IMG/VR virus record: IMGVR_UViG_3300003465_000373
Span: 1 to 58,404 of that record
DNA: 58,404 nucleotides
Source: a virus
Taxonomy: Duplodnaviria > Caudoviricetes
Reading direction: 5' to 3' (one strand)
The position numbers were made by a program, and so were the translations under genes. Positions 11,000-37,711 of this stretch are shown here, in pieces. The notes below the pieces were generated by a model that searched no databases, was not told the origin of the DNA, and saw only the letters and a program-made list of their open reading frames with translations. The stretch's first letter is position 1. Each line of letters starts with the position of its first letter.

Positions 11000-11042
11000 A
11001 TAACTACATCGGCTTCAAGCCGTTGCGACTTTAGGCCGTAAA

Positions 11043-11114
11043 TGTCACCGGTGAGAGTCGAACTCACATTACGGGCTTCGGAGGCCCGTGTCCTATCCAT
11101 TGAACGACGGTGGC
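11043..11114 (-). tRNA. tRNA-Arg(CCG)
   Basis: CGGGC-CTCCGAA-GCCCG. Confidence 0.92.
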
Positions 11115-11119
11115 AAAAG

Positions 11120-11192
11120 TACCGGCAGCGGGAGTCGAACCCGCATGGTCGTCTTTATGAGGGACGATGGAGAACCACTACTCCACACCGGC
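11120..11192 (-). tRNA. tRNA-Met/Ile2(CAT), short D arm
   Basis: CGTCC-CTCATAA-AGACG. Confidence 0.75.
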
Positions 11193-11201
11193 GTTTGTTT
11201 C

Positions 11202-11435
11202 TCAGTACCAGCACTCCGCAGGGAGCCGGTCTTCATCTTCGTCATCAGCGACTTGCTTATCGAGGTCAGGCCCGCCAGCAAGGCGTGCCGCCAACTTCCT
11301 TACCTCGTTGATGAGGAAGTTCGTCTCCTCGACGTGATGTCGCTCAAGGTCTTTGTATCGCTCTTCCCAACTCTTGTTGGGGTCCATCTTGTACCTGGGA
11401 ACCTCGATCCAGGCATATCCTATGTAGTCTTTCAT
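11202..11435 (-). CDS. hypothetical protein
   Basis: 77-aa ORF between tRNAs. Confidence 0.55.
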   Translation of the reverse strand: MKDYIGYAWIEVPRYKMDPNKSWEERYKDLERHHVEETNFLINEVRKLAARLAGGPDLDKQVADDEDEDRLPAECWY

Positions 11436-11440
11436 ATCAG

Positions 11441-11512
11441 TGGCCTGCCAGAGAGTTGAACTCTGTTCTCCTGGTTAAGAGCCAGGTACGTCACCACTTA
11501 CGCTTGCAGGCC
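11441..11512 (-). tRNA. tRNA-Lys(CTT)
   Basis: CCTGG-CTCTTAA-CCAGG. Confidence 0.85.
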
Positions 11513-11679
11513 ATTTTTGATCTTGTGGAACCTCTTCAGGATTTCCATACAGCGGTAGGGGTCTTTAACCCTTAACGTCGTCGTGTTCCCACAACTATAC
11601 TCCCGGTAGTTGCCGCCGAGTAGTTGTTTTTCGAGGGCCTCGATGATCCTTCGATACTGTGCTGTTTTCTTCATATAAG

Positions 11680-11752
11680 TACCCCGCCAGAGACTCGAAC
11701 TCTGACCCTACCCGTTAAAAGCGGGAAATGCTGCCTCTAACACCTGCGGGGC
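11680..11752 (-). tRNA. tRNA-Lys(TTT)
   Basis: CCCG-CTTTTAA-CGGG. Confidence 0.85.
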
Positions 11753-11807
11753 ATATCAACTTGTGTCTTGGTATGTTGGACGTTTATGTTTCATCGCTTG
11801 CTCCTTG

Positions 11808-12032
11808 TTAAAACTCTTCGATGGAGTCATCGAACTCGTAATCGGCTACGCCGTAGTCCAAGACCCACTGGTTGTGGTCGATTTCTTCTTCGCCATCACC
11901 GAAGTCTTCGGCACGAACAAGCTCCACGACCTCCACGAACTCGCCGGCCTCGTCGTCAAAGCCCAAGACGGGCTTGCTTCGTTCTTCCGGGGTCATCTGG
12001 GCAATCCGTTCCGCCAATTCGTCAAAAGTCAT
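11808..12032 (-). CDS. acidic hypothetical protein
   Basis: 74-aa ORF, ATGA overlap with the upstream gene. Confidence 0.6.
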   Translation of the reverse strand: MTFDELAERIAQMTPEERSKPVLGFDDEAGEFVEVVELVRAEDFGDGEEEIDHNQWVLDYGVADYEFDDSIEEF

Positions 12033-12302
12033 ACGACTTCTCCCTTGAGTAAGTTTCTGATCGCCTTGGCGATCAATTTGGCTTTCTTCGTCGCCGTCAG
12101 GCCGACGTAATCCTTGCCAGGTTCTCCTTCGAGGATGCTCATGATCTCGTTCGCCGTTCTAAAATAGCGAGTGAGATGTTCATTTCCGAGGGGAAACGAG
12201 TTGAACTCACAGTCCTTCTTCTGACAAAACCACTTGTGCAGCTTCTTGGCTACCTCACGGTTGTCATCCGCTCGCCTAATTCCTCGGGCCATCAAACACA
12301 TG
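12029..12302 (-). CDS. hypothetical protein
   Basis: ORF from MCLMARG with GGTGG upstream; start approximate. Confidence 0.55.
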
Positions 12303-12324
12303 AACACCACCTTTGTTAGAACAG

Positions 12325-12398
12325 AGCGGGATATGGGAGTCGAACCCATCTAAATCCTGCTTGGAAGGCAGGTGCAACAGCCGCAATGCGTATCCCGC
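12325..12398 (-). tRNA. tRNA-Gly(TCC)
   Basis: CCTGC-CTTCCAA-GCAGG, U73. Confidence 0.88.
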
Positions 12399-12403
12399 AA
12401 ATA

Positions 12404-12470
12404 TGTGCGACAAGAAAAAAGTAAGAGGTTCGATGATTAAAAGTCATGTACTCCTACAAACATCCGCACA
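12404..12470 (-). ncRNA. rod RNA capped by a tRNA-Lys(TTT) anticodon stem-loop
   Basis: TGTGCG/CGCACA closing stem, GTAGGAG/CTCTTAC mid stem, apical ATGA-CTTTTAA-TCAT. Confidence 0.65.
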
Positions 12471-12472
12471 AG

Positions 12473-12545
12473 TGCCTCGCCAGGGGATTGAACCCTGCAC
12501 GTCCAGGTTAAGAGCCTGGTGCCTCTCCATTGAAGCGTGCGAGGC
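12473..12545 (-). tRNA. tRNA-Lys(CTT)
   Basis: CCAGG-CTCTTAA-CCTGG. Confidence 0.85.
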
Positions 12546-12551
12546 GTTAAG

Positions 12552-12629
12552 TGGAACTGGCCGGACTCGAACCGAGCATTTTGCCCCTCTTAGGTGGGGT
12601 GGCTTTCTCCTGTTAAGCCTTACAGTCCC
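12552..12629 (-). ncRNA. non-canonical tRNA with Ala-type acceptor and ambiguous CTAA loop
   Basis: GGGACTG/CAGTTCC-A (G3:U70), 5-bp D stem, CCCC-ACCTAAGA-GGGG. Confidence 0.6.
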
Positions 12630-12634
12630 GAGAG

Positions 12635-12731
12635 CGGTGAGAGGTAGGAGTCGAACCTACATCCCCTGAGTTGGACCCCAGGTATCTTAGTCCATGCCAC
12701 CGTCCAAGGTGGACTTTTAGACGACCTCACC
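12635..12731 (-). ncRNA. Trp(CCA)-like tRNA with D-loop hairpin complementary to its anticodon loop
   Basis: D insert CCACC-TTGGAC-GGTGG; anticodon arm CCTGGG-GTCCAA-CTCAGG; normal T arm, G73. Confidence 0.75.
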
Positions 12732-12742
12732 AGAAGAACCAG

Positions 12743-12814
12743 TCGAGCCGGTTGGAATTGAACCAACTACCTACTCCTTATCAGAGAGACGTGCTACCGG
12801 TACACCACGGCTCG
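12743..12814 (-). tRNA. tRNA-Ile(GAT)
   Basis: Loop CTGATAA; cloverleaf. Confidence 0.82.
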
Positions 12815-12927
12815 ATGCGTGCCGGTCCTGGGGCATGGTAAACCTTACGGGCCGGCACACACATCTAATCATATAAATTTATTCTCCTCCCCTCGCCCAG
12901 ATGTGTGAGAAGGCTTAGTTCAGAGAG

Positions 12928-13001
12928 GGTGACTATCGGGAATCGAACCCGAACCTCCAGATTCACAGTCTGGCGTGAACAACCTTTACACCATAGCCAC
13001 C
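12928..13001 (-). tRNA. tRNA-His(GTG)
   Basis: CCAGA-CTGTGAA-TCTGG, G-1:C73. Confidence 0.92.
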
Positions 13002-13006
13002 ATCAG

Positions 13007-13228
13007 TCATCTGTCTTTCGGACAGACTTTCTTCAACGCCTTTTGGATGGCGTCAATCGCTTCGTGTGCGATCCAAATCTGTTCGTTGTGTGACTCCTCG
13101 CTCAACCCCATAGGGCAGTTGAGACTGTGGAGGCATTCACGCAACTCGTCCAACTTCTCGTCAATGAACAACACAGGATTATTCTTCACTGTCTTCCCTT
13201 TCGGGTAGTAATTCGTGACATAGTTCAT
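13007..13228 (-). CDS. hypothetical protein
   Basis: ORF from MNYVTNY. Confidence 0.5.
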   Translation of the reverse strand: MNYVTNYYPKGKTVKNNPVLFIDEKLDELRECLHSLNCPMGLSEESHNEQIWIAHEAIDAIQKALKKVCPKDR

Positions 13229-13266
13229 ATCGACTGTTGGGCCTCGTTTCTTCAATACTTTTTCAG

Positions 13267-13390
13267 TGCCCCTGGCGGGATTTGAACACCGCTCTAACGG
13301 CTTAACAGGCTGTAGTCCTTCGAGGGCATTCCAAGCGGACAAGAAGGTGAAAGACGTTTTTACGTCGTGCTTCCATTACACTACAGGAGC
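13267..13390 (-). ncRNA. tRNA-like RNA with ~50-nt insert between D arm and an Asn(GTT) anticodon arm
   Basis: GCTCCTG/CAGGGGC-A, D arm GTGT-AATGGAA-GCAC, extra hairpins, ACAGC-CTGTTAA-GCCGT, T arm. Confidence 0.7.
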
Positions 13391-13491
13391 GTTTTCCACG
13401 ACCAAATCGAAGAGAGTTTTCTCCCCCGTAAGTGGAGGAGTTCAGAGTCGAACTGAATAAACCATGTACTCCGCTTCAGCATTCGTAGAAG

Positions 13492-13562
13492 CTGTAGACC
13501 AGGGACTCGAACCCCAACTAAGACGTTCAGAGCGTCTCGTGCTGCCATTACACCAGTCTACA
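13492..13562 (-). tRNA. tRNA-Gln(CTG)
   Basis: AGACG-CTCTGAA-CGTCT, U1-A72, G73. Confidence 0.9.
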
Positions 13563-13573
13563 ATGTTTCAAAG

Positions 13574-13700
13574 TGCCAGGGGTAGGAGTCGAACCCACAT
13601 CGCCCGGCTTATAAGACCGGGGCTTTAGTTCACACAGTCCTGTCTAATGTGTGAGTGACAGCGTGCTATTCCGGCCCAATCCGGCTTAAGCTACCCTGGC
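13574..13700 (-). tRNA. tRNA-Ile(TAT) with ~55-nt structured D-loop insert
   Basis: CCGGT-CTTATAA-GCCGG; acceptor GCCAGGG/CCCTGGC-A; D stem encloses two hairpins. Confidence 0.78.
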
Positions 13701-13704
13701 GTAT

Positions 13705-13845
13705 TGGTTGCAGGAACCGGACAGCTACCCCGGTATCTCCCCCAATGTTCCATTGGCGTTCTGGCCTACGGCCGGGGGTATCCTTGCACCCCCATATGCT
13801 GGCGAGTAGGCCAGGTGGTGGAGGCGGCTTTTGAACGATCCTGCG
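13705..13845 (-). ncRNA. tRNA-like RNA with initiator-type acceptor end and encoded CCA
   Basis: C-GCAGGA...TCCTGC-A-A-CCA; internal 9-bp stem CTGGCCTAC/GTAGGCCAG; degenerate T loop. Confidence 0.6.
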
Positions 13846-13847
13846 AG

Positions 13848-13919
13848 CAGCCACGGAAGGACTCGAACCTTCATATCCTGCTTAACAGGCAGGCGAATTA
13901 CCAATTATTCGACACGGCT
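13848..13919 (-). tRNA. tRNA-Asn(GTT)
   Basis: CCTGC-CTGTTAA-GCAGG, G73. Confidence 0.88.
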
Positions 13920-13925
13920 AAAATG

Positions 13926-13999
13926 CTGCTGCGGGGGACTCGAACCACCTCCTGCTCCCTCAAATGGGAGCTATGCTGCCCATGATACACCACGCAACA
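13926..13999 (-). pseudogene. Gln(TTG)-like tRNA with 6-nt anticodon loop
   Basis: GCTCCC-ATTTGA-GGGAGC, U1-A72, imperfect T stem. Confidence 0.6.
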
Positions 14000-14056
14000 G
14001 TTTTGGACCATAACCGAATTGTCAAAGAACTTCCCACCCAGAGGGGGGTTGTCAAG

Positions 14057-14128
14057 TCTCGGAGGCAGGATTCGCACCTGCGACCTGGAACTTATGAGGC
14101 TCCCGAGCTACTGCTGCTCCACTCCGAA
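14057..14128 (-). tRNA. tRNA-Met(CAT)
   Basis: GGAGC-CTCATAA-GTTCC; T loop GTGCGAAT. Confidence 0.82.
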
Positions 14129-14130
14129 AG

Positions 14131-14205
14131 TCGGGATGGCAGGAGTTGAACCTGCGTTCTCCAGTATCCGAAACTGGCGACCACTCCAAGCTGGTCCACA
14201 TCCCG
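14131..14205 (-). tRNA. tRNA-Pro(CGG)
   Basis: CCAGT-TTCGGAT-ACTGG. Confidence 0.9.
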
Positions 14206-14264
14206 GTTTCTTCGGTTTTGGGATGCCGTGTTAAATCGGCAGAGAACCGTCGCCAAACTCTCAG

Positions 14265-14339
14265 TCGGGGGAGGAGGATTTGAACCTCCGTTCTTCTGCT
14301 TCCAAGGCAGACGACCACTCCAAGCTGGTCCACCCCCCG
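14265..14339 (-). tRNA. tRNA-Pro(TGG)
   Basis: TCTGC-CTTGGAA-GCAGA. Confidence 0.9.
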
Positions 14340-14608
14340 ATTACTTCTCCAAGTATTCCAACTCACACCAGGCGAAGCCCCAGCCATCCCAGAACAGGAG
14401 TGCCGTGCCGGCTTGCCAGTTAATCTCCTTTACCAAACCCGCCACGGTCGAAAACATCGGGTCTTCGTACTTCTTGTACTTCCAGAACTCACCGACCTTA
14501 ACTTCCATGATGGTCTACCTCGTGTAAACATCGCCAGTTGTGCTAAAGGACTTATGTGCTCTCCCGAGACTGAATCTGCCTTTTACACCAATACCTCTCT
14601 GGCCTAAG

Positions 14609-14679
14609 CAGGTCCGCAAGGATTTGAACCCTGACTGACAAGGTTGGAGCTTGTCGTGCTGCCGTTACACTACGGACCT
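14609..14679 (-). tRNA. tRNA-Trp(CCA)
   Basis: ACAAG-CTCCAAC-CTTGT, G73. Confidence 0.92.
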
Positions 14680-15024
14680 GTGTATTTCTTCCCAATGCAA
14701 CTTCTTGTGACAGTTAGAACACAAGATGATACACTTGGCTATTTCTTGAAGTATCCTTTCTCTGCTCCATCCATAGGACGCCACTTTGGAGAGTGCCCTA
14801 TCCTTATGACTTGGATCATCGTGGTGAAACTCCAAGCAGGCTTGGTGATCTTCACCGCATCGAGAACACTTCAACACTGACTTGTAGTCAGCGAGCCACT
14901 CTCGTAGCTCAGTTTTTCGTTCCTTGACCTTGCTTTTCGCTCGGTCCTTGTTATTGGCATACCACCGACGCCGATACTCACGGCATTTGTCGAGGTTCGC
15001 CTGTTTCCATTCTGCTGTAGCCAT
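14665..15024 (-). CDS. HNH endonuclease
   Basis: CSRC..DH..CLEFHH and KCIILCSNCH motifs; same family as 296-709. Confidence 0.82.
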   Translation of the reverse strand: MATAEWKQANLDKCREYRRRWYANNKDRAKSKVKERKTELREWLADYKSVLKCSRCGEDHQACLEFHHDDPSHKDRALSKVASYGWSRERILQEIAKCIILCSNCHKKLHWEEIHRSVV

Positions 15025-15166
15025 GCTCTAACATAGTCATGGACTCCAAAACCTCGTCAGCAGTTTGGAGCGGCCAGTGCTGGAACAACCGAGTCGTTTG
15101 CGTGGTTTCCAGTCCCCGTGAGGGGCCACTGACCCGGTGGGCTTTTGGCCCCCGACCGCATAAGTC

Positions 15167-15559
15167 TTATCCCTTCCCCTTTTCGGCACGATCCCGTGCC
15201 ATTTGTTCCCTCCGACGCTCGGCTGAGTGGCAGAAGGGGAAGCGTCTGCTACTCTTCCAAGTTGACTTGCTGCCGTAGCCCCAATTCTTCTTGGAGCGAT
15301 ACGACCGGGCGGCTCCGTCGAGGACATAGGGCGAGTCGTCCAATTCGACCCACAACTGGTGCCACTTCTGCCATTCCCGTCGTGTCCCCTCTGCGGGCCT
15401 GAATATCTCGTGGCCGTCGAGGTAGAACACGTCGCCTTCGAGCGTCAGTTCGCCTTCCAGCTTTGCTCGGCACATCCGCTCGAAGATTGCCTTCTTGCGG
15501 TCGGCCCCCTCAGCCTTGAAGATGCTGAACCGTTCCCTTCGGAACATTTTTGCCATCAT
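15167..15559 (-). CDS. hypothetical protein
   Basis: 130-aa ORF coupled to the upstream gene. Confidence 0.6.
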   Translation of the reverse strand: MMAKMFRRERFSIFKAEGADRKKAIFERMCRAKLEGELTLEGDVFYLDGHEIFRPAEGTRREWQKWHQLWVELDDSPYVLDGAARSYRSKKNWGYGSKSTWKSSRRFPFCHSAERRREQMARDRAEKGKG

Positions 15560-16619: not shown

Positions 16620-17471
16620 TTAGCGGTGGCGGAACAATTCTCCAATGCCGATCAGGTATTCTTCCATCCCTTCGATCCACGACCGCAGCGGAGGTCGTTT
16701 GTTGTTGATGAGGACGCCGTGATGGGGCCGTTTGGCCAGCGTCATGAAGTTCTTGCTTGACAACTCGTTCACACGGCAGTCGCCCACCGTAAAGTCGATG
16801 ATCTCCCTGGCCCACTGTGACTTGGTGGCCGATCCGTGGTTGGTCAGGTGATAGGTTCCGAAATCGGCCGGTTCACGCACGAGGTCATACACGGCACGAG
16901 CCAGGTCGAAGCTATAAGTCGGGCAGGCTCGCACGTCATTGACGACATCAATCTCATCGTCGTGCCTGGCCCGATCCAGAACCTTGTCGATGAAGTTGGC
17001 TCGCCTGCCGCCAGGCCCAAAAAGCCAAGACGTGCGGACGATCCAGTGTTTATTCCAACTCTGCCGAAGGTATCGCTCGCCAACTAACTTAGTTTGGCCG
17101 TAGACGTTGACTGGCCGAACCGGCTCCCGGCCTTCGTCGTAGCCATTTTCATCCTCCTGCCCGAAGACCATTTCCGTCGAAAAATGCACGATTCTGGCAT
17201 CGTACTTCTTGCATGAGGAAGCCAAGGTCCGTATGGCGTCGGCGTTGATGCACTCACACATATTGGGGTGATGTTGTGCCAAGTCTACGTCCGTGTAGGC
17301 GGCACAATTGATTACAATGTCTGGTCGAAGGTTGGCGATGTGGCAGTTGACCTGGGTTGGGTTGGTGATGTCGCACGTCTTGCGGGAGAACGCCACCATC
17401 GTCTCGAAGGAAAATACTTGGCGTAAGGCGTAGGCCAACATACTGTCGCCGCCCAGGATCAGAACTTTCAT
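16620..17471 (-). CDS. rfbD: dTDP-4-dehydrorhamnose reductase family
   Basis: PDIVINCAAYTDVD, HFSTEMVF, PVNVYGQTKLVGE, IVRTSWLFG, GTYHL. Confidence 0.88.
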   Translation of the reverse strand: MKVLILGGDSMLAYALRQVFSFETMVAFSRKTCDITNPTQVNCHIANLRPDIVINCAAYTDVDLAQHHPNMCECINADAIRTLASSCKKYDARIVHFSTEMVFGQEDENGYDEGREPVRPVNVYGQTKLVGERYLRQSWNKHWIVRTSWLFGPGGRRANFIDKVLDRARHDDEIDVVNDVRACPTYSFDLARAVYDLVREPADFGTYHLTNHGSATKSQWAREIIDFTVGDCRVNELSSKNFMTLAKRPHHGVLINNKRPPLRSWIEGMEEYLIGIGELFRHR

Positions 17472-17472
17472 T

Positions 17473-18150
17473 TTACAACCTGCGTAATTCAAGTTCCATG
17501 TGCATTGGGAACAAACAGTAGTTCACCAACTCGTACTCGCCGTCTGATCGCCACTTGGTATCGAACCACACCAGATGCTTATTTTTAGGGTCGGGATTCC
17601 ACGGCCTAGCCGGTGGCGGCAGTTTGTCTGCGTCCACGACCTGCCCTGGGACAAGTTTCGTCCCTAAAGTCTCTTCCTGTTTAACAGGCTTGGGCAGTTC
17701 TGGCAATGCCTCTGACTTGTCTGGCAGGCAAGGTATGATCGGAACTGGTAGCTTGACCTCGACCGGGACTTGTGGCTGCACGGCAATTATCGGTGGCAGC
17801 AGAATGCTCTCGGCAACTCGCTCGGGCACGACAAACGGCCCGATGATGCTAGGGATGTTGGCCGGCTCGATCTTGATTACCGGTGGCAGAGAGGCTTCGA
17901 GCTTGGGATCAACTTGAACTTCCGTGACCGTCACCATGTTAGCCATGTCGGTGTGGACAATGATAGGTGGAGAAATCTTTCGCATCACCACAACTGGCTC
18001 TTTGACTTCGCCACCGAGGTTGTGGACCCCAACGGGTGGTTCCGGCATGGTCGGAAGTGGTTTTTCCGGTTTCTTCTCTTCGATATGTGGTGCTGGCGGC
18101 GGAAGCGGTTGCTCCTGGGGTGGCGGTGGATTATACGATACTCGGCCCAT
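17473..18150 (-). CDS. Pro/Val-rich hypothetical protein
   Basis: Low-complexity ORF from MGRVSY. Confidence 0.6.
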   Translation of the reverse strand: MGRVSYNPPPPQEQPLPPPAPHIEEKKPEKPLPTMPEPPVGVHNLGGEVKEPVVVMRKISPPIIVHTDMANMVTVTEVQVDPKLEASLPPVIKIEPANIPSIIGPFVVPERVAESILLPPIIAVQPQVPVEVKLPVPIIPCLPDKSEALPELPKPVKQEETLGTKLVPGQVVDADKLPPPARPWNPDPKNKHLVWFDTKWRSDGEYELVNYCLFPMHMELELRRL

Positions 18151-18553
18151 TATCTGTTCCCATACTTGGGTTCTTGGGCTTAGGCTTCTCTCTGGTCTTA
18201 GCTTGGGCGTAGAAAACGAACGACGTATTCTTCTCTGGAAGCTGGCTGCCCTTATACTGTACCTGTCGGTAGACGACATTTAACTTAGTATGAGGGTTCT
18301 CGTATTGCATCATATCCTTGAGACGTGCCAGGATCGAGTCGATAAAAGTGCGGCTACCGGTGATGCGGAGGCCGTCTTCGCCAAAAGTAGAGCCTTTCTT
18401 GCCGGGCTGGATCGGATCAAACTGAATAGGCCCTGGACGGAGGGACTGCCAGTATTGCATGACCTGATCCTTCTGCATCCGCCAACTTTGCGGGGCTACG
18501 TCGTAGCTGCTTGTTGCACCACCAGCTAAGAACTCACGGAAACTCATCTCCAT
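18131..18553 (-). CDS. hypothetical phage protein
   Basis: Starts MEMSFREFL; TAGATA upstream. Confidence 0.65.
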   Translation of the reverse strand: MEMSFREFLAGGATSSYDVAPQSWRMQKDQVMQYWQSLRPGPIQFDPIQPGKKGSTFGEDGLRITGSRTFIDSILARLKDMMQYENPHTKLNVVYRQVQYKGSQLPEKNTSFVFYAQAKTREKPKPKNPSMGTDNGPSIV

Positions 18554-20435: not shown

Positions 20436-21614
20436 TTATGACAACTGCCTTTCCGGTATCGCAGCCCCACTTTGAATCAGGTGACTCTTTGTCTCCTCAA
20501 TCAGTTGGCCGAGCCACTTGATGTACGGCGTACCGCCAGTGCCGGTCGGGTTATCGACTCGCTTCTGGATGTAATTCACGGCGTAGTCGAAGTGCTGCTG
20601 ACGGAATTTGATAAGCTCCTCCACGCAAGCGTTGTACGCCTCGATTGTGTTTTTGACTGCTCCCGACCCCGGCTTTTGTTCATGGTTGTGTATGATGTAG
20701 TGTCGGACGCCGGTGATGCCGTCCATGTAGGCCAGGTGCTCAGGCGGCATGTAGTCCCGCATCTCGTCCAGGTGGTGCGTCAACATCGAGTCTTCATGCT
20801 TGATGCCAAGGAACTTCAGTAGGCTTGGCACAATGCTGCTCTGGGCACCAGTCTCGCCACGGTAGTTCTGCGGCTCATTATCAAAGCAGCCCTCATACAC
20901 GACATCGGTGAAGCCGAAGATATAGGGGCGGACCTGAGAGTAGTACACATCCGGGCTGCACCCTTCCGGCATCCTGGCCAGGGTCGCATTCATGGCTACT
21001 AGACTCTTGTGGACACGCTCAAGAGCCGGTTGCTGGACGCTCGACTTGTACACTTCATAGCCCTTGTACTCTGCGATGGCCTGCAACGCCTCCGCTGCCC
21101 TGGCCTCAATGTCAACATGAACCAGGATGAACCAATCCTCGTCCTTCTTGGCCTTTCGGGTGAAGTTCTGAAGAAGCTCGATGTTGCCGAGTTCAATGGG
21201 GCCGTTCTGGTCGATCCGCTTCCAGTTGTGCAAGCAGTAAGAGGCATACGACAGGATGGGCGGACGACCAACTGCCTTCGCCAGCCGCACAAGGGGTTGA
21301 GCGATGTAGTAGGGGATCGACTTCTGTACCTTGCCACGGTAATCCCTGGCATGGATCACAGCACTGGCGATGTAGGAGAAGAGCATAAAAGCCCGCTCCA
21401 CCGCCATGTCATTCTCGCAGTCGATGAACTCGGTAAGGCTAAAGTGCTTGTCGAAGATCGGGTGGGTGGTGATGTACTCCTGGAGTCGGCCCTCGTCCAC
21501 GAGGTCGGGGAGATCACGACACAGTTGCTCCAGATAGGCGAACTCACGCACCCGGATGGCTTCCAGTGGGTCTTTATTGGGCAGAAAGCCACGGTCTTGC
21601 AAGGTCCATTTCAT
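20436..21614 (-). CDS. indoleamine 2,3-dioxygenase family heme enzyme
   Basis: RPPILSYASY..NW, EDWFILVHVDIE, GETGAQSS, MRDYMPPEH, FRQQH, GTGGT motifs. Confidence 0.9.
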   Translation of the reverse strand: MKWTLQDRGFLPNKDPLEAIRVREFAYLEQLCRDLPDLVDEGRLQEYITTHPIFDKHFSLTEFIDCENDMAVERAFMLFSYIASAVIHARDYRGKVQKSIPYYIAQPLVRLAKAVGRPPILSYASYCLHNWKRIDQNGPIELGNIELLQNFTRKAKKDEDWFILVHVDIEARAAEALQAIAEYKGYEVYKSSVQQPALERVHKSLVAMNATLARMPEGCSPDVYYSQVRPYIFGFTDVVYEGCFDNEPQNYRGETGAQSSIVPSLLKFLGIKHEDSMLTHHLDEMRDYMPPEHLAYMDGITGVRHYIIHNHEQKPGSGAVKNTIEAYNACVEELIKFRQQHFDYAVNYIQKRVDNPTGTGGTPYIKWLGQLIEETKSHLIQSGAAIPERQLS

Positions 21615-22010: not shown

Positions 22011-22093
22011 TACCGGCAGAGGGACTTGAACCCCCACGTCCTTTCGGACACCTGCTCTTGAGGCAGGCGTGTCTTCCGTTTCACCATGCCGGC
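22011..22093 (-). tRNA. tRNA-Leu(CAA), long variable arm
   Basis: CCTGC-CTCAAGA-GCAGG; V arm GTCC-GAAA-GGAC. Confidence 0.93.
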
Positions 22094-22192: not shown

Positions 22193-23080
22193 TTAATTTG
22201 GCCTTTGGTTCGCCCGTGTGGCTTCAAGGAGACTCTTGTCGAGGTCGATGATATAGTCCCGACCGAAGTCCCCATTTTCAAGATTATCTATTAACGTCTG
22301 CGGTAAATTTTGTCGGATGTCGTTCCGCCGCATGAACGGCTCCGATACTGCCGACAGGGCAATCGCTGCCACCGTGTCCACGTCGCCACGCAAATTGACA
22401 ATCCATCGTAGCATGTCGGCCTGGTTGTTGTGCTCCATGATCGCCGTCATGGCTGCGTGGACACACTGGATGCCTTCAACACCCACCTTGCCACGCCACG
22501 CCTCCCGCCAGTTGTAGCCTGGCACATGGCCGTTAAGGTATGCAGGCAACCAGTGCTTCGGCTCCATCGTCTGATGGAAAAACAGGCCCATGAGAGCCGC
22601 AGCCACGGCAGCGTCCACGCCCTTTTTGGTCTTGTGTGTGATCTCGGCCTGAATTGTGGCCATTTCCTTGCACTGAGCGATGCTGTTTGCAAACACGCCG
22701 ACCGGGCCGACTCGCATCGCCGCCCCGGACTTTTCCGAGTCCGGCTTGATATTGGCCAGGAACCCGTCCGGCGTCTGATTATCCTTGTTCTCCAGGAACC
22801 CCTGAAAAGCACGGGAGTAGCCGTCACGGGGGTCACGCAGGAACACCGCCAGAAAGTGCTTGACGATATTCTGAGGCGTCCACTCGTCGCCCGAGACGAT
22901 GGCCTCAGCTACGGCGATGGACATCTGGGTGTCGTCGGTGTACATGCCGGGCTTGATGCCCTTGTGCTTACCGTGCTGGACGTAGCCATACTCAAAATTG
23001 CCACCCCATTTGTGCAGAGCTTCGTCGTTGTATTCGTATCCCGCTCCAAATGCGTCACCGATTGCACACTCCAACAGCAT
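22193..23080 (-). CDS. ADP-ribosylglycohydrolase (DraG/ARH family)
   Basis: AIGDAFG, YTDDTQM, SGAAMR, ITH, GDVDTVAAIA. Confidence 0.92.
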   Translation of the reverse strand: MLLECAIGDAFGAGYEYNDEALHKWGGNFEYGYVQHGKHKGIKPGMYTDDTQMSIAVAEAIVSGDEWTPQNIVKHFLAVFLRDPRDGYSRAFQGFLENKDNQTPDGFLANIKPDSEKSGAAMRVGPVGVFANSIAQCKEMATIQAEITHKTKKGVDAAVAAALMGLFFHQTMEPKHWLPAYLNGHVPGYNWREAWRGKVGVEGIQCVHAAMTAIMEHNNQADMLRWIVNLRGDVDTVAAIALSAVSEPFMRRNDIRQNLPQTLIDNLENGDFGRDYIIDLDKSLLEATRANQRPN

Positions 23081-23320
23081 GATGGCCTCCTTAGCCGGCG
23101 AACGAAAGGTATGCCTTGTTCTTTTCCTGCTCGACGCCCAAGGCAAGGACATGCGTCATCCGCTGAAGTTCCTTCAACACATTCTTGCTGCTGATGTCGA
23201 TGTAAGGGATGCGGTCAGCAGGGCAACTCACATCACCGAGCATCTGGTTGATGTTGTGGGCCTGGCCGACGATGACCATGAGTCTGGCCCTGATTTCGTT
23301 AAGTTCGGCCTTGTTTACCA

Positions 23321-24063: not shown

Positions 24064-24139
24064 TGGAGACAGAGGGACTCGAACCCTCGACCATGAGCTT
24101 CCACTTGGGCCTTAACTCCCGGTCACGCCTGTTATCCCC
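24064..24139 (-). ncRNA. minimal tmRNA tRNA-like-domain mimic
   Basis: GGGGATA/TGTCTCC-A (G3:U70), stemless D loop, GACC/GGTC helix, T arm GAGGG-TTCGAGT-CCCTC, no mRNA-like domain. Confidence 0.65.
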
Positions 24140-32487: not shown

Positions 32488-32683
32488 TAGTGTCCGGGGT
32501 GGGGGTCGAACCCACATGACCCATTTTTTGAGAATGGGATGTCTCGCCAGTTGCATCACCCGGACGATACGGGCAGTGCCTACAACCTGAACTGCAACAG
32601 TAGCCTCGCTTCAACAGGAACAATTCTGTGAAGACGTACTTGCCGTTCTCCAAGTAATAGTCAACACCCTCAACGAGCTTCAT
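32447..32683 (-). CDS. DUF5522-like small Cys-rich protein (3' end overlaps tRNA)
   Basis: DYYLENGKYVFTE.FLLKRGYCCSSGCRHCPY. Confidence 0.7.
   Translation of the reverse strand: MKLVEGVDYYLENGKYVFTELFLLKRGYCCSSGCRHCPYRPGDATGETSHSQKMGHVGSTPTPDTNAGPTHGKPRQPH
32491..32565 (-). tRNA. tRNA-Leu(CAA), short variable region
   Basis: CCATT-CTCAAAA-AATGG; no V arm. Confidence 0.85.
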
Positions 32684-32687
32684 GGAG

Positions 32688-32762
32688 TGTTAGCGGTGGG
32701 ACTCGAACCCACAAAACCCTGGTTCTGAACCAGAGATGTCTCACCAATTGCATCACGCTAAC
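32688..32762 (-). tRNA. tRNA-Leu(CAG), short variable region
   Basis: TCTGG-TTCAGAA-CCAGG. Confidence 0.85.
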
Positions 32763-32767
32763 GTAAG

Positions 32768-32841
32768 TAGCCCCGAGAGGACTCGAACCTCCAAACTGCT
32801 GGCTCTAAACCAGCCGGCTTTGCCAATTTGCCTACAGGGCC
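32768..32841 (-). tRNA. tRNA-Leu(TAG), short variable region
   Basis: GCTGG-TTTAGAG-CCAGC. Confidence 0.87.
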
Positions 32842-32846
32842 AAATG

Positions 32847-33287
32847 TTACTCTAATCGAATGACCTTATTCCGACCTTCAATCACTTCAAATGAGTCCGC
32901 ACAAGCAACCGTGCCGGCGTAACTCACGCCACAATATGGTTCAGTTTGATACACGATTCTCTTCACTAAATGACCGTCTGGCACACGACACTGCAACTTC
33001 TTATTCAGGTTCACTATCGTAACTTCGCCTCTACGATCCAAGAAACTGACAACCTGAACTCTGTTGCCATTCGGCATAACCATTTCATAAGGTGTCAAGG
33101 TTTCTTCAAACTCTACTCGTGCCGGCCTCGTCAACGTGCCCGCAAGCCAGGTAATTAGAACCAGATAAGTAAGCCAGGCCGTCATCTTCCACCGTTTTTG
33201 AATTTCAGAATCGGCCAGACAGACGACCGACCAAATCGTGGTAGCAAAGATGAGTACACCCAACACCAATATGTGCATGAAGACCAT
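32847..33287 (-). CDS. membrane protein
   Basis: Two N-terminal TM helices; AAGGAG RBS. Confidence 0.65.
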   Translation of the reverse strand: MVFMHILVLGVLIFATTIWSVVCLADSEIQKRWKMTAWLTYLVLITWLAGTLTRPARVEFEETLTPYEMVMPNGNRVQVVSFLDRRGEVTIVNLNKKLQCRVPDGHLVKRIVYQTEPYCGVSYAGTVACADSFEVIEGRNKVIRLE

Positions 33288-33302
33288 GATGTTCTCCTTA
33301 AG

Positions 33303-33393
33303 CGGAAGGCGTGGGACTCGAACCCACACAGCCACATCTTAGTGGCTGTACACGCTTTCGAGGCGTGCCCCTCATCCAAGCCGGATGCCTTCC
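33303..33393 (-). tRNA. tRNA-Ser(CGA)
   Basis: CACGC-CTCGAAA-GCGTG, long V arm, G73. Confidence 0.87.
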
Positions 33394-33398
33394 ATTAG

Positions 33399-33473
33399 TG
33401 TCACCGGTGGGACTCGAACCCACAAGACCCAGGCTCTCGACCTGAGATGTCTCGCCAATTGCATCACGGTGAC
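33399..33473 (-). tRNA. tRNA-Leu(GAG), short variable region, C33
   Basis: TCAGG-TCGAGAG-CCTGG. Confidence 0.8.
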
Positions 33474-33479
33474 GTAAAG

Positions 33480-33554
33480 TAGCCTCGGTGGGACTCGAAC
33501 CCACAAAACAAGTCATTTTAAGTGACCCGGATTTGCCAATTCTCCTACGAGGCC
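33480..33554 (-). tRNA. tRNA-Leu(TAA), short variable region
   Basis: GGTCA-CTTAAAA-TGACT. Confidence 0.87.
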
Positions 33555-34626: not shown

Positions 34627-34989
34627 ATGCTCAAGTTGCCGCTTGCTTACGCCACTATGTCCGTGATTTTCCTGTCGGCGTGCTTGGTCTTCAACTACTT
34701 CATCAACACTGTTCTTAAGCACTCACAAGGCTTTTGGACTGATGTAAAGGCATGGGCTTTGTTCGCCGTCCCACTCATGTTCATCCACAGTTTCATCACG
34801 CTTGCCTGGCGAACTGGCAAGGAGGCCGGTATTGACGGGTGGGGCGTCACGATTACCGCCACCCTTGCCAATGCTCTCGGTACAACCCTTGCCCTGTGGC
34901 TCTTCTTTAACGAACCACCCACTGCCGGCAAACTCATCGGCCTTGGCCTAGTAGTCGCCGGTAGCGTCGTAGCTACCTGCTACGGCTAA
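34627..34989 (+). CDS. 4-TM DMT/SMR-like membrane protein
   Basis: Four hydrophobic helices; LFFNEPPT.GKLIGLGLVVAG. Confidence 0.7.
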   Translation: MLKLPLAYATMSVIFLSACLVFNYFINTVLKHSQGFWTDVKAWALFAVPLMFIHSFITLAWRTGKEAGIDGWGVTITATLANALGTTLALWLFFNEPPTAGKLIGLGLVVAGSVVATCYG

Positions 34990-35526: not shown

Positions 35527-35646
35527 TGGCCCCACCGGTCAGGACTCGAACCTGACAACCTTTCCCTTGCGGGCTTGCTCTTCATCCACACCCCATACAT
35601 TCAGAGGGGGAAATTAAGTGGCTACCACCTTCGAGCTACGGGGGGT
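35527..35646 (-). ncRNA. anticodon-less tRNA mimic with D-loop insert
   Basis: D stem GCTC/GAGC encloses a ~45-nt hairpin; CCC-GCAA-GGG mini arm; T arm GTCAGG-TTCGAGT-CCTGAC. Confidence 0.7.
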
Positions 35647-35789
35647 AAGCGGGGGCTGTACTCCTATCGAGCATCCTCATTCTCCAGCCCGCTTTCCACG
35701 GCGGACCTGGGTTCCAGAGTTTCGTGTTGCCTTTTTAGGCTTATTTCGTATACTGCACGTCAGTCGCCCCACATTCAGGAGGACCAACG

Positions 35790-37287: not shown

Positions 37288-37374
37288 CAAGACATTGACG
37301 GACTCGAACCGTCTCACCGGGCTATGAACCCGGTCGTTAGCCGATAACTGTAGTCCTACGACCATTCAGGTCTT
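37288..37374 (-). ncRNA. initiator-like (CAT) tRNA with enlarged D arm and bulged acceptor
   Basis: CCGGG-TTCATAG-CCCGG (three G-C pairs); D arm GTCGT..ACGAC extended. Confidence 0.65.
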
Positions 37375-37576: not shown

Positions 37577-37642
37577 TGATCTTCGGGTGGGAGTCGAACC
37601 CACAACCTCTCCAGCTTGTCACCTGGACACGATCCAAGATCA
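37577..37642 (-). ncRNA. D-armless tRNA-like RNA (GAC in an 8-nt loop)
   Basis: GATCTT/AAGATC acceptor, TCCAG-GTGACAAG-CTGGA, T arm GTGGG-TTCGACT-CCCAC. Confidence 0.65.
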
Positions 37643-37711
37643 TCCGGGGGAACCTTCTTCCAAAGAGGTAGTCCTCTAGGGCATTCTCGCAGTTAAGGCT
37701 TATTCAGCCAG

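What the first reader, a model, noticed from the sequence alone, without database searches (positions are those of the whole stretch)
12635..12731. Trp-like tRNA whose D-loop hairpin is complementary to its anticodon loop
The inserted hairpin loop TTGGAC is the exact complement of the anticodon loop GTCCAA (6 of 6). An alternative helix AGTCCA/TGGACT is also possible. This repeats in miniature the logic of the 3143-3419 RNA: two unrelated sequences with D-insert:anticodon pairing. The pairing might be intramolecular masking or dimerisation.
Basis: partly seen in the sequence, partly recalled or inferred. Interest (0 to 1): 0.82.

Follow-up and report, generated by a model that had tools for sequence, protein, structure and literature searches.

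The report
Odd tRNA-like gene in phage array
A 97-base tRNA look-alike inside a giant phage's block of about sixty tRNA genes has two hairpin loops that could pair with each other, but nothing I could test shows that the match is more than coincidence.

Summary
On the minus strand, 12731..12635 is a 97-nt tRNA-like gene. It has a perfect 7-bp acceptor stem, a canonical T arm, a 6-bp stem capped by the 6-nt loop GUCCAA, and an enlarged D region. That D region carries the hairpin CCACC-UUGGAC-GGUGG, whose loop is the exact 6/6 complement of GUCCAA. ARAGORN and Rfam do not call it a tRNA. It sits in a roughly 38-kb minus-strand array of 49-50 tRNA genes plus about ten uncalled tRNA-like genes. 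The host is a huge T4-like phage: its gp23 capsid is 75.6% identical to LR756511.1 and 79-87% to the 80 best IMG/VR relatives.

The functional reading is not supported. Shuffles reach the same complementarity in 1.4-1.7% of trials, or 10% with a parse-free test. That is the lowest of 35 comparable elements, which is about what a null minimum gives. UUGG is a common D-loop motif here (52 of 194 tRNAs), and it automatically complements CCA+A37. I found no ortholog or paralog of the insert, so covariation is untestable. "Trp-like" rests only on CCA and G73.

My best reading is a tRNA-derived, non-decoding RNA produced by array turnover. Functional loop-loop pairing remains possible, at about 15%.

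The parts
12635..12731 (-). Whole 97-nt tRNA-like gene. It lies 10 nt downstream of tRNA-Ile(GAU) (12742-12814) and 5 nt upstream of another uncalled tRNA-like gene.
   Evidence: Not called by ARAGORN. No Rfam tRNA hit at gathering. The only Rfam match is tRNA-Sec at 18.1 bits, E = 0.31, against a gathering score of 47.
12725..12731 (-). Acceptor stem, 5' strand GGUGAGG.
   Evidence: Pairs 7 of 7 (6 Watson-Crick, 1 G.U) with UCUCACC at 12636-12642.
12635..12643 (-). Bulged C (12643), acceptor 3' strand UCUCACC (12642..12636) and discriminator G (12635). No encoded CCA.
12644..12660 (-). T arm: GUAGG UUCGACU CCUAC.
   Evidence: 5 of 5 stem pairs and a canonical T loop. The same 17-mer occurs in uncalled tRNA-like genes of LR756511.1 and G007.
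12665..12682 (-). Anticodon-like hairpin: CCUGGG / GUCCAA / CUCAGG. The stem is 6 bp and the loop 6 nt, containing U-CCA-A.
   Evidence: pair probabilities 0.98-0.99. In the deletion scan ARAGORN reads it as a 2-nt anticodon 'cc'.
12671..12676 (-). Loop GUCCAA.
12697..12712 (-). D-region hairpin: CCACC / UUGGAC / GGUGG.
   Evidence: pair probabilities 0.89-0.91.
12702..12707 (-). Loop UUGGAC, the exact complement of GUCCAA. It contains the D-loop-type UUGG.
   Evidence: TTGG occurs in the D-loop region of 52 of 194 ARAGORN tRNAs of the clade.
12689..12722 (-). Outer helix of the D region. Either GUCUA (12722..12718) pairs with UGGAC (12694..12690), as in the MFE fold, or GUCU pairs with AGAU together with AGUCCA/UGGACU. 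The alternative fold is 2.3 kcal/mol worse.
   Evidence: -37.6 against -35.3 kcal/mol.
12683..12689 (-). 7-nt single-stranded linker UAAGAUA between the D region and the anticodon-like stem. A canonical tRNA has 1 nt here.

Best explanation
This is a tRNA-derived but non-canonical gene in the large tRNA array of a huge T4-like phage.

Shown:
- It keeps an intact acceptor-stem/T-arm minihelix and a perfectly paired anticodon-like stem.
- Its D region is enlarged by about 23-27 nt that form an extra hairpin.
- A 7-nt linker replaces the single nucleotide 26.
- The anticodon loop has 6 nt instead of 7.

Inferred:
- It is co-transcribed with its neighbours, which lie 5-10 nt away on the same strand.
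- It is cut out by RNase P and 3' processing and receives CCA, because these steps need only the minihelix.
- It cannot decode like a normal tRNA.
- It is therefore a tRNA mimic thrown up by the array's duplication, insertion and deletion turnover. If it has any role, it would be as a competitor or decoy for tRNA-binding enzymes such as host anticodon nucleases. Otherwise it is a neutral by-product.

The 6/6 complementarity of the two loops is most likely incidental. UUGG is the usual D-loop motif (G18 G19 preceded by U), and it automatically complements CCA plus A37. Only two further base pairs then have to arise by chance.
For: Context:
- gp23 capsid, gp20 portal and prohead protease are in the window.
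- There are 49-50 ARAGORN tRNAs, all on the minus strand.
- A further 11 T-arm motifs are uncalled, and about ten of them have acceptor pairings.

Anatomy of the element.

Not a canonical tRNA even after removal of the insert:
- Of 1653 single deletions, 52 give a full-length ARAGORN call.
- 46 of those have a 2-nt anticodon (28 'cc', 18 'gg'). Only 1 is Trp(cca).
- In contrast, three other oversized elements become ordinary tRNAs after removal of about 51-56 nt: W01 291437 becomes Tyr, G007 871 becomes Arg or Val, and window 13700 becomes Ile.

Two other tRNAs of the window also have 6-nt anticodon loops. The adjacent tRNA-like gene, 12629..12552, is degenerate. Both fit birth-and-death turnover.

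Chance level of the complementarity.

D-loop origin of UUGG: 52 of 194 tRNAs have TTGG and 8 of 194 have TTGGA.

Relatives carry many differently remodelled tRNA-like genes that share this T arm but not the body.
Against: - Every helix of the element is perfect (7, 5+5, 6 and 5 bp). That is not what a long-decayed pseudogene looks like and hints at selection on the fold.
- Both complementary motifs are presented as whole loops on stable hairpins. For two free 6-nt loops that has a raw probability of 1 in 4096.
- A second element of the same array (3143-3419) shows a 9-nt complement between its D insert and its anticodon region (0.7-1.4% of shuffles).
- Expression, processing and CCA addition are inferred, not observed.
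- The decoy role has no direct support.
Confidence: 0.55

Rival explanations
1. The loop-loop complementarity is functional. The D-region hairpin loop UUGGAC forms a 6-bp kissing helix with GUCCAA. This could happen within one molecule, masking the anticodon-like loop, for example from anticodon nucleases. It could also happen between two molecules, as a head-to-tail dimer held by two kissing contacts.
For: - The complement is exact, 6/6, with both motifs displayed as whole loops of stable hairpins.
- The isolated duplex is worth -6.4 to -8.6 kcal/mol.
- Per-element shuffle frequency is 1.4-1.7%.
- The 277-nt RNA at 3143-3419 has an analogous 9-nt complement.
- Phage tRNAs are proposed to evade anticodon nucleases through changes in the anticodon loop (PMC10264068; I read the abstract only).
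Against: - It is the lowest of 35 p-values, which a null gives about 39% of the time (my arithmetic). In the parse-free test it reaches 10% and ranks 5th of 28.
- There is no enrichment of such pairing among the insert-bearing tRNA-like genes of relatives.
- UUGG is explained by D-loop ancestry.
- A cis kiss is incompatible with an L-shaped tRNA fold (inference).
- There is no homolog, so no covariation.
Confidence: 0.15
2. It is a dead relic: a tRNA paralog recently disabled by a 1-nt loss in the anticodon loop and an insertion in the D region, and under no selection.
For: - No ortholog was found in any collection searched.
- The adjacent tRNA-like gene has mismatched T and anticodon stems.
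- Three 6-nt anticodon loops occur in one array.
- The fold is only marginally more stable than shuffles (z = -1.92).
Against: All stems, including those of the insert itself, are perfectly paired. The T arm and acceptor stem are intact.
Confidence: 0.2
3. The extra D-region hairpin is an intron-like or mobile insertion module, as seen in relatives and in Lak megaphage tRNAs. It is removed to give a working, if unusual, tRNA.
For: - LR756511.1 carries at least 8 copies of a module of about 50 nt, four of them inside tRNA D loops. G007 carries 5-6 copies of another module inside anticodon stems.
- Removing those modules restores canonical tRNAs.
- Lak phages have 'enigmatic introns' in tRNAs (PMC6784885; I read passages).
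- The element shares the 10-mer CUUGGACGGU with one LR756511.1 module.
Against: - Removal of the insert does not restore a canonical tRNA: 1 of 1653 deletions gives Trp.
- The insert has no paralog in the window or in relatives.
- Similarity to the modules is not significant: 192 of 2000 shuffles reach it.
- No RtcB and no archaeal-type splicing endonuclease was found in 5 related records, including one complete genome.
Confidence: 0.07
4. The hairpin loop U-UGG-A-C is a codon mimic that binds the anticodon loop (U33-CCA-A37) of genuine tRNA-Trp in trans, in the manner of a T-box specifier. The RNA would then be a sponge or sensor for tRNA-Trp.
For: UUGGA complements U33-CCA-A37, which the three canonical tRNA-Trp genes of the clade all carry (sequences printed). 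An indoleamine 2,3-dioxygenase gene lies in the same array.
Against: This is pure sequence logic. There is no conservation, and no other feature of a T-box or of any known tRNA-binding RNA. Rfam gives nothing.
Confidence: 0.03

Closest known systems
tRNA genes with 'enigmatic introns' in Lak megaphages (Devoto et al. 2019, PMC6784885; passages read), and the insertion modules I found in the relatives LR756511.1 and G007
   Same: All are huge-phage tRNA arrays with oversized tRNA genes that standard bacterial tRNA finders miss. In LR756511.1 the extra sequence sits in the D loop, as here.
   Different: In those cases the insert is conserved or repeated, and removing it restores a canonical tRNA. 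Here the insert is unique and only about 23-27 nt long. Removing it leaves a 6-nt anticodon loop and a 7-nt linker.
Phage T4 stable RNAs 'species 1 and 2' encoded within the T4 tRNA cluster (recalled; no paper retrieved)
   Same: Small structured RNAs of unknown function that are co-encoded and co-processed with phage tRNAs in a T4-type phage.
   Different: The relationship is an analogy only.
Anticodon-intron pairing in archaeal and eukaryotic pre-tRNAs (recalled)
   Same: An inserted segment is complementary to the anticodon loop of its own tRNA.
   Different: Those introns lie next to the anticodon (37/38) and are cut by a splicing endonuclease. Here the insert is in the D region, and no such enzyme was found in the clade.
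Kissing-loop complexes of two 6-7-nt hairpin loops, such as TAR-TAR* and ColE1 RNA I/RNA II (recalled)
   Same: Two stable hairpins whose whole loops are Watson-Crick complementary.
   Different: Those are documented intermolecular complexes. Here pairing is only a possibility read from the sequence.
Canonical tRNA-Trp
   Same: U-CCA-A in the loop, a G discriminator, and a canonical T arm.
   Different: The loop is 6 nt and the first pair is G1-C72. There is no similarity to the clade's tRNA-Trp genes. It is not scored as a tRNA by Rfam or ARAGORN.

Membership tests
tRNA (Rfam RF00005 / ARAGORN cloverleaf) | Covariance-model score at or above the gathering score of 29 bits | tested here: not met
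   There is no RF00005 match at 12635-12731 among the 41 hits at gathering. At E up to 10, the only clan match kept is tRNA-Sec at 18.1 bits.
tRNA (Rfam RF00005 / ARAGORN cloverleaf) | 7-bp acceptor stem with a discriminator base | tested here: met
   GGUGAGG / UCUCACC pairs 7 of 7, followed by G. One bulged C lies between the T stem and the acceptor stem.
tRNA (Rfam RF00005 / ARAGORN cloverleaf) | 5-bp T stem with a UUCRANY loop | tested here: met
   GUAGG UUCGACU CCUAC.
tRNA (Rfam RF00005 / ARAGORN cloverleaf) | 5-bp anticodon stem with a 7-nt loop (U33, purine 37) | tested here: not met
   The stem is 6 bp and the loop is the 6-nt GUCCAA. The register that gives a 7-nt loop needs two mismatches (read from the sequence). 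ARAGORN reads a 2-nt anticodon.
tRNA (Rfam RF00005 / ARAGORN cloverleaf) | D arm of 3-4 bp with a 7-11-nt loop, and one nucleotide (26) before the anticodon stem | tested here: not met
   40 nt lie between position 9 and the anticodon-like stem. They contain two stacked helices and a 7-nt linker.
tRNA-Trp | Anticodon CCA in a normal loop, and sequence kinship with tRNA-Trp genes of the same clade | tested here: not met
   CCA is present, but in a 6-nt loop. The best local alignment to the window's tRNA-Trp is 12 matched bases with two gaps, lying in the D region of the element. The T arm is not Trp-specific: 12 of 120 stretches. G73 as a Trp identity element is recalled, not tested.
tRNA-Sec (RF01852) | Gathering score of 47 bits, 8/5 or 9/4 acceptor/T stems, long variable arm, anticodon UCA | tested here: not met
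   The score is 18.1 bits, and the alignment starts inside the element. There is no long variable arm and no UCA.
Intron- or module-bearing phage tRNA | Removal of one contiguous insert restores a canonical tRNA | tested here: not met
   1 of 1653 deletions gives Trp(cca), and 46 give 2-nt anticodons. The three control elements give 181-253 canonical calls each for their top isotype.
Intron- or module-bearing phage tRNA | The insert recurs in other genes or in relatives | tested here: not met
   The D-region and anticodon-arm stretch containing the insert (RNA positions 8-70) matched only itself, both in the window and in the LR756511.1, G007, G001 and G008 sequence held. Similarity to the LR756511.1 modules was reached by 192 of 2000 shuffles.
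Kissing-loop pair | Two stable hairpins with Watson-Crick complementary loops | tested here: met
Kissing-loop pair | Covariation of the loops, or physical evidence of pairing | not testable with these tools
   No homolog was found. No sequencing run was listed.
Y RNA-like / YrlA tRNA mimic | A Ro (TROVE) protein partner and a Ro-binding stem | tested here: not met
   TROVE was found in 0 of 5 related records. There is no Rfam match.

The most novel reading that the evidence does not exclude
The array encodes self-addressed tRNA mimics. An insert in the D region carries an antisense or codon-like loop (U-UGG-AC) for the RNA's own anticodon-like loop (GU-CCA-A). The RNA would then either hide that loop, for example from anticodon nucleases, pair head-to-tail into dimers, or capture genuine tRNA-Trp. 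The 277-nt RNA at 3143-3419, with its 9-nt complement between D insert and anticodon region, would be a second and larger example of the same design.
Probability: 0.12. Interest if true: 0.75.

Novelty: new variant of a known kind. Interest (0 to 1): 0.3.

Why it matters
Huge phages carry dozens of tRNA genes, and a sizeable minority of them are not ordinary tRNAs. In this window about ten T-arm-bearing genes escape ARAGORN, and relatives carry repeated insertion modules.

If the loop-loop match here were functional, it would be a new way for a tRNA-shaped RNA to regulate or shield its own anticodon. That would be relevant to the arms race around tRNA-cleaving defence systems.

As it stands, the element is one more example of how fast these arrays remodel tRNA bodies while keeping the acceptor/T minihelix. 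The value of this check is to set the chance level of the eye-catching complementarity at about 1-2% per element, which is unremarkable across the array.

Tried and rejected

Searches for homologs:
- megablast and blastn of the region against INPHARED phages gave only an 87-nt tRNA-Gly match to LR756511.1.
- An exact 16-mer of the D hairpin in IMG/VR gave 13 stretches, none in a tRNA-like context.
- A 25-mer of T arm plus acceptor in IMG/VR gave 0.
- An acceptor ... T-arm/acceptor pattern gave 0 in JGI metagenomes and 0 in GTDB genomes.
- A stems-only pattern with free loops in metagenomes gave 6 stretches, none followed by a T arm.
- BLAST of the 97-mer in the 20 largest related IMG/VR records and in LR756511.1 gave only T-arm matches plus one 15-nt chance hit in coding DNA.
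- Flanking proteins used as anchors (window 17473-18279 and 16620-17492) found no relatives.
- All pattern scans need exact matches.

Candidate orthologs sharing the T arm:
- I examined LR756511.1 291437..291311, G007 498893-499001 and G007 4872-4970. Their bodies are different and none shows the complementarity.

Module search:
- The pattern CTTGGACGGNNNNCCGTC in IMG/VR gave 119 stretches. 7 had a T-loop-like word nearby, and only 1 (L245) is a real module.

Other checks:
- Homology of the insert to the LR756511.1 modules was rejected as unproven.
- Rfam at E up to 10 on the element and at E up to 5 on the 277-nt RNA gave nothing meaningful.
- Sequencing runs: none was listed and no RNA holder was listed, so I did not use read laying.
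- The promoter and terminator scan of 11000-15200 gave nothing bearing on the element.
- No RtcB, TROVE or tRNA-intron endonuclease was found in 5 related records.

Literature:
- The searches found no report of intramolecular pairing between a D insert and the anticodon loop in a tRNA-like RNA.
- The supplements of PMC6784885, which list its intron sequences, were not available. They might contain similar D-region inserts.

Full report
**1. What is in the sequence.**

Read on the minus strand, window 12731..12635 is a 97-nt RNA. Its parts, 5' to 3', are:
- GGUGAGG, the acceptor 5' strand
- UC
- GUCUA AAA G U
- CCACC UUGGAC GGUGG, the D-region hairpin
- C A UGGAC
- UAAGAUA, a 7-nt linker
- CCUGGG GUCCAA CUCAGG, the anticodon-like hairpin
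- GGAU
- GUAGG UUCGACU CCUAC, the T arm
- C, a bulged base
- UCUCACC, the acceptor 3' strand
- G, the discriminator

UUGGAC (window 12707..12702) and GUCCAA (12676..12671) are exact complements, 6 of 6. The flanking bases do not pair.

The MFE fold is -37.6 kcal/mol, with z = -1.92 and 7 of 200 shuffles folding as well. It is a four-armed cloverleaf-like shape in which both motifs are complete loops of stable hairpins. Pair probabilities are about 0.9 and about 0.99.

Forcing the two motifs to pair in a nested way costs 8.5 kcal/mol (-29.1 against -37.6). Only a loop-loop kiss would therefore be compatible with the rest of the fold. The isolated duplex is worth -6.4 to -8.6 kcal/mol.

**2. Where it sits.**

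The window is an IMG/VR virus record that CheckV rates 12% complete. It encodes a gp23-type major capsid protein, a gp20-type portal with an intein, and a prohead protease.
- The capsid is 75.6% identical to that of the 595-kb uncultured phage LR756511.1.
- 381 IMG/VR stretches encode a capsid relative. The best 80, which were kept, are 79-87% identical.

ARAGORN finds 49 tRNA genes, or 50 with the intron option, between 712 and 38088, all on the minus strand. Rfam confirms 41 at gathering. Neither tool calls 12635-12731. The best Rfam match there is tRNA-Sec at 18.1 bits, against a gathering score of 47.

A scan for T-arm motifs found 56 on the minus strand and none on the plus strand. Eleven lie outside ARAGORN calls, and about ten of those have a matching acceptor stem. 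This element is one of them.

It lies 10 nt after tRNA-Ile(GAU). It lies 5 nt before another uncalled, more degenerate tRNA-like gene at 12629..12552.

**3. What kind of tRNA-like gene it is.**

The acceptor stem pairs 7 of 7. The T arm is canonical. A 5-6-bp anticodon-like stem sits at the right distance from the T arm, 4-5 nt.

Three features break the tRNA rules:
- The loop has 6 nt.
- 40 nt lie where a D arm of 16-19 nt should be.
- 7 nt replace nucleotide 26.

I deleted every single stretch of 10-70 nt in silico, 1653 variants in all, and ran ARAGORN on each.
- 52 variants gave a full-length call.
- 46 of those have a two-base anticodon (28 'cc', 18 'gg').
- Only one is Trp(cca).

Three other oversized elements treated the same way became ordinary tRNAs once about 51-56 nt were removed:
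- LR756511.1 291437..291311 became Tyr-GUA.
- G007 871-995 became Arg-UCG or Val-UAC.
- Window 13700..13574 became Ile-UAU.

So this gene is not simply a good tRNA with an intron.

"Trp-like" rests on U-CCA-A in the loop and a G discriminator. There is no sequence kinship with the tRNA-Trp genes of this window, LR756511.1 or G007. The T arm is widely shared: of the first 120 IMG/VR stretches with the 19-mer, 42 were uncalled, 28 Asn, 12 Trp, 7 Tyr, 6 Met and 25 of other types.

**4. Relatives.**

I found no ortholog.
- Exact-word and pattern scans of IMG/VR, JGI metagenomes and GTDB genomes gave nothing real.
- BLAST in LR756511.1 and in the 20 largest related IMG/VR records hit only the T arm.
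- Flanking proteins found no syntenic loci.

The same 17-nt T arm occurs in uncalled tRNA-like genes of LR756511.1 (127 nt) and G007 (109 and 99 nt). Their bodies are unrelated to this one.

These phages do carry families of inserts.
- LR756511.1 has at least 8 copies of a module of about 50 nt: a helix, a GNRA-capped hairpin reading CUUGGAyrc-GAAA-...UCCCC, and then UACAAAC. Four copies sit in tRNA D loops. One more lies on an unrelated IMG/VR contig.
- G007 has 5-6 copies of a different module inside anticodon stems.

Lak megaphage tRNAs with "enigmatic introns" are in print (PMC6784885; passages read).

The element shares the 10-mer CUUGGACGGU with one LR756511.1 module. However, 192 of 2000 shuffles score as well, so I do not claim homology.

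No RtcB, Ro/TROVE or archaeal-type splicing endonuclease was detected in five related records, one of them complete.

**5. Is the complementarity more than chance?**

- Shuffling the 31-nt D region: 345 of 20000 trials (1.7%) reach a complement of 6 nt or more to the 8-nt loop window.
- An automated survey of 35 uncalled T-arm-bearing elements from the window, LR756511.1, G007, G001 and G008 set the last hairpin loop before the T arm against everything upstream. This element had the lowest value, 14 of 1000. By my arithmetic, a minimum of 0.014 or less among 35 null tests is expected 39% of the time.
- A parse-free version, using the 23 nt in the anticodon-arm position against the upstream region, gave 101 of 1000, 5th of 28.
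- Among 232 tRNA and tRNA-like genes folded by MFE, two have a 6-nt loop-loop complement. One is this element. The other is an ordinary tRNA-Ser(CGA), whose anticodon loop happens to match its own T loop.

Part of the match is also built in. TTGG, the usual G18 G19 preceded by U, is in the D-loop region of 52 of 194 ARAGORN tRNAs of the clade, and TTGGA is in 8. UUGGA is by definition the complement of U33-CCA-A37.

In favour of something real, the 277-nt RNA at 3419..3143 has AAUCGCAAA in its 198-nt D-loop insert. This is complementary to UUUGCGAUU in its anticodon region. 14 of 2000 shuffles reach it and 14 of 1000 in the parse-free test. Two such cases among about ten odd genes in one array is suggestive. 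But both were picked by eye first, and the insert-bearing tRNAs of relatives show no such tendency.

**6. Verdict.**

The most probable reading (0.55) is a tRNA-derived, non-decoding RNA made by the array's rapid duplication and insertion/deletion turnover.
- It is processed like its neighbours because its minihelix is intact (inferred).
- The loop-loop match is incidental.
- If it has a role, the likeliest is as a tRNA mimic towards tRNA-binding enzymes. Phage tRNAs are proposed to counter host anticodon nucleases (PMC10264068; abstract read).

The rivals are:
- a dead relic (0.2)
- functional kissing, in cis or as a dimer (0.15)
- a spliced insert (0.07)
- a codon-mimic loop that binds tRNA-Trp (0.03)

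None can be decided without RNA data or closer relatives. No sequencing run was listed.

Noticed in passing
window 3143-3419 (-): A 277-nt tRNA-like gene with a perfect acceptor stem and T arm. Its D arm GUGU..GCAC is split by an insert of about 198 nt, and its anticodon stem CAAAC/GUUUG encloses a 19-nt loop that ends in AUUCGGA. AAUCGCAAA in the insert is complementary (9 nt) to UUUGCGAUU in that loop. 14 of 2000 shuffles reach this. Rfam finds nothing.
   Followed up: partly
window 13574-13700 (-): A 127-nt tRNA-like gene. ARAGORN calls it His only with a 30-nt 'intron'. It has a hairpin inside the D loop and a hairpin of about 42 nt between the D arm and the anticodon arm. Deleting about 51-56 nt gives tRNA-Ile(UAU) in 253 variants.
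   Followed up: partly
window 12552-12629 (-): A 78-nt uncalled tRNA-like gene directly downstream of the finding. It has a good acceptor stem, an imperfect T stem, a 4-bp anticodon stem and an 8-nt loop ACCUAAGA.
   Followed up: partly
window 7754-7826 and 13925-14000 (-): Two ARAGORN 'tRNA-???' genes with 6-nt anticodon loops (GAUUAC and AUUUGA). With the finding, that makes three 6-nt loops in one array.
   Followed up: no
window 32490-33554 (-): Five tRNAs of 75-76 nt have Leu anticodons (CAA, CAG, UAG, GAG, UAA). They have Leu-type D arms but no long variable arm. Type II Leu tRNAs of 83-84 nt lie at 22011, 28297 and 29477. Short Leu-anticodon tRNAs also occur in G007, G008 and G001 (names printed).
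   Followed up: no
window 24064-24139, 37288-37374, 37579-37666, 35530-35705, 6273-6334 (-): Further T-arm-bearing elements that ARAGORN does not call. They have acceptor-like pairings and non-canonical bodies.
   Followed up: no
LR756511.1 287.2-291.5 kb (loci L017, L020, L039) and L245: A repeated RNA module of about 50 nt: an outer helix, a conserved ACUUGGAyrc-GNRA-...UCCCC hairpin, and then UACAAAC. There are at least 8 copies in LR756511.1. Four are inserted in tRNA D loops (genes of 125-128 nt) and the others stand outside tRNA-like genes. One more copy lies on an unrelated IMG/VR contig. There is no Rfam family for it.
   Followed up: partly
G007 (loci L142-L144): 871-995, 4872-4970, 6212-6336, 14780-14904, about 34790-34888: A second repeated module of about 50 nt (..AGUCUCAGCGCCAAUUUGUCC-UWCG-GGAAUGCUUAGUUGGGAUUACAU). 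It is inserted in the 5' strand of the anticodon stem of different tRNAs. Removing it restores Arg(UCG) or Val(UAC) genes.
   Followed up: partly
window 20436-21614 (-) and 22193-23152 (-): An indoleamine 2,3-dioxygenase homolog (PF01231, E = 2.5e-67) and an ADP-ribosylglycohydrolase lie inside the tRNA array. These are unusual phage cargo. The first acts on tryptophan.
   Followed up: no
window 52425-55004 (-): The gp20-type portal gene carries an intein splicing domain at residues 156-336.
   Followed up: no
LR756511.1 179588-179661; G007 (L141): tRNAs with anticodon CUA, which ARAGORN labels 'Pyl'. These are possible amber suppressors in relatives. None was seen in this window.
   Followed up: no
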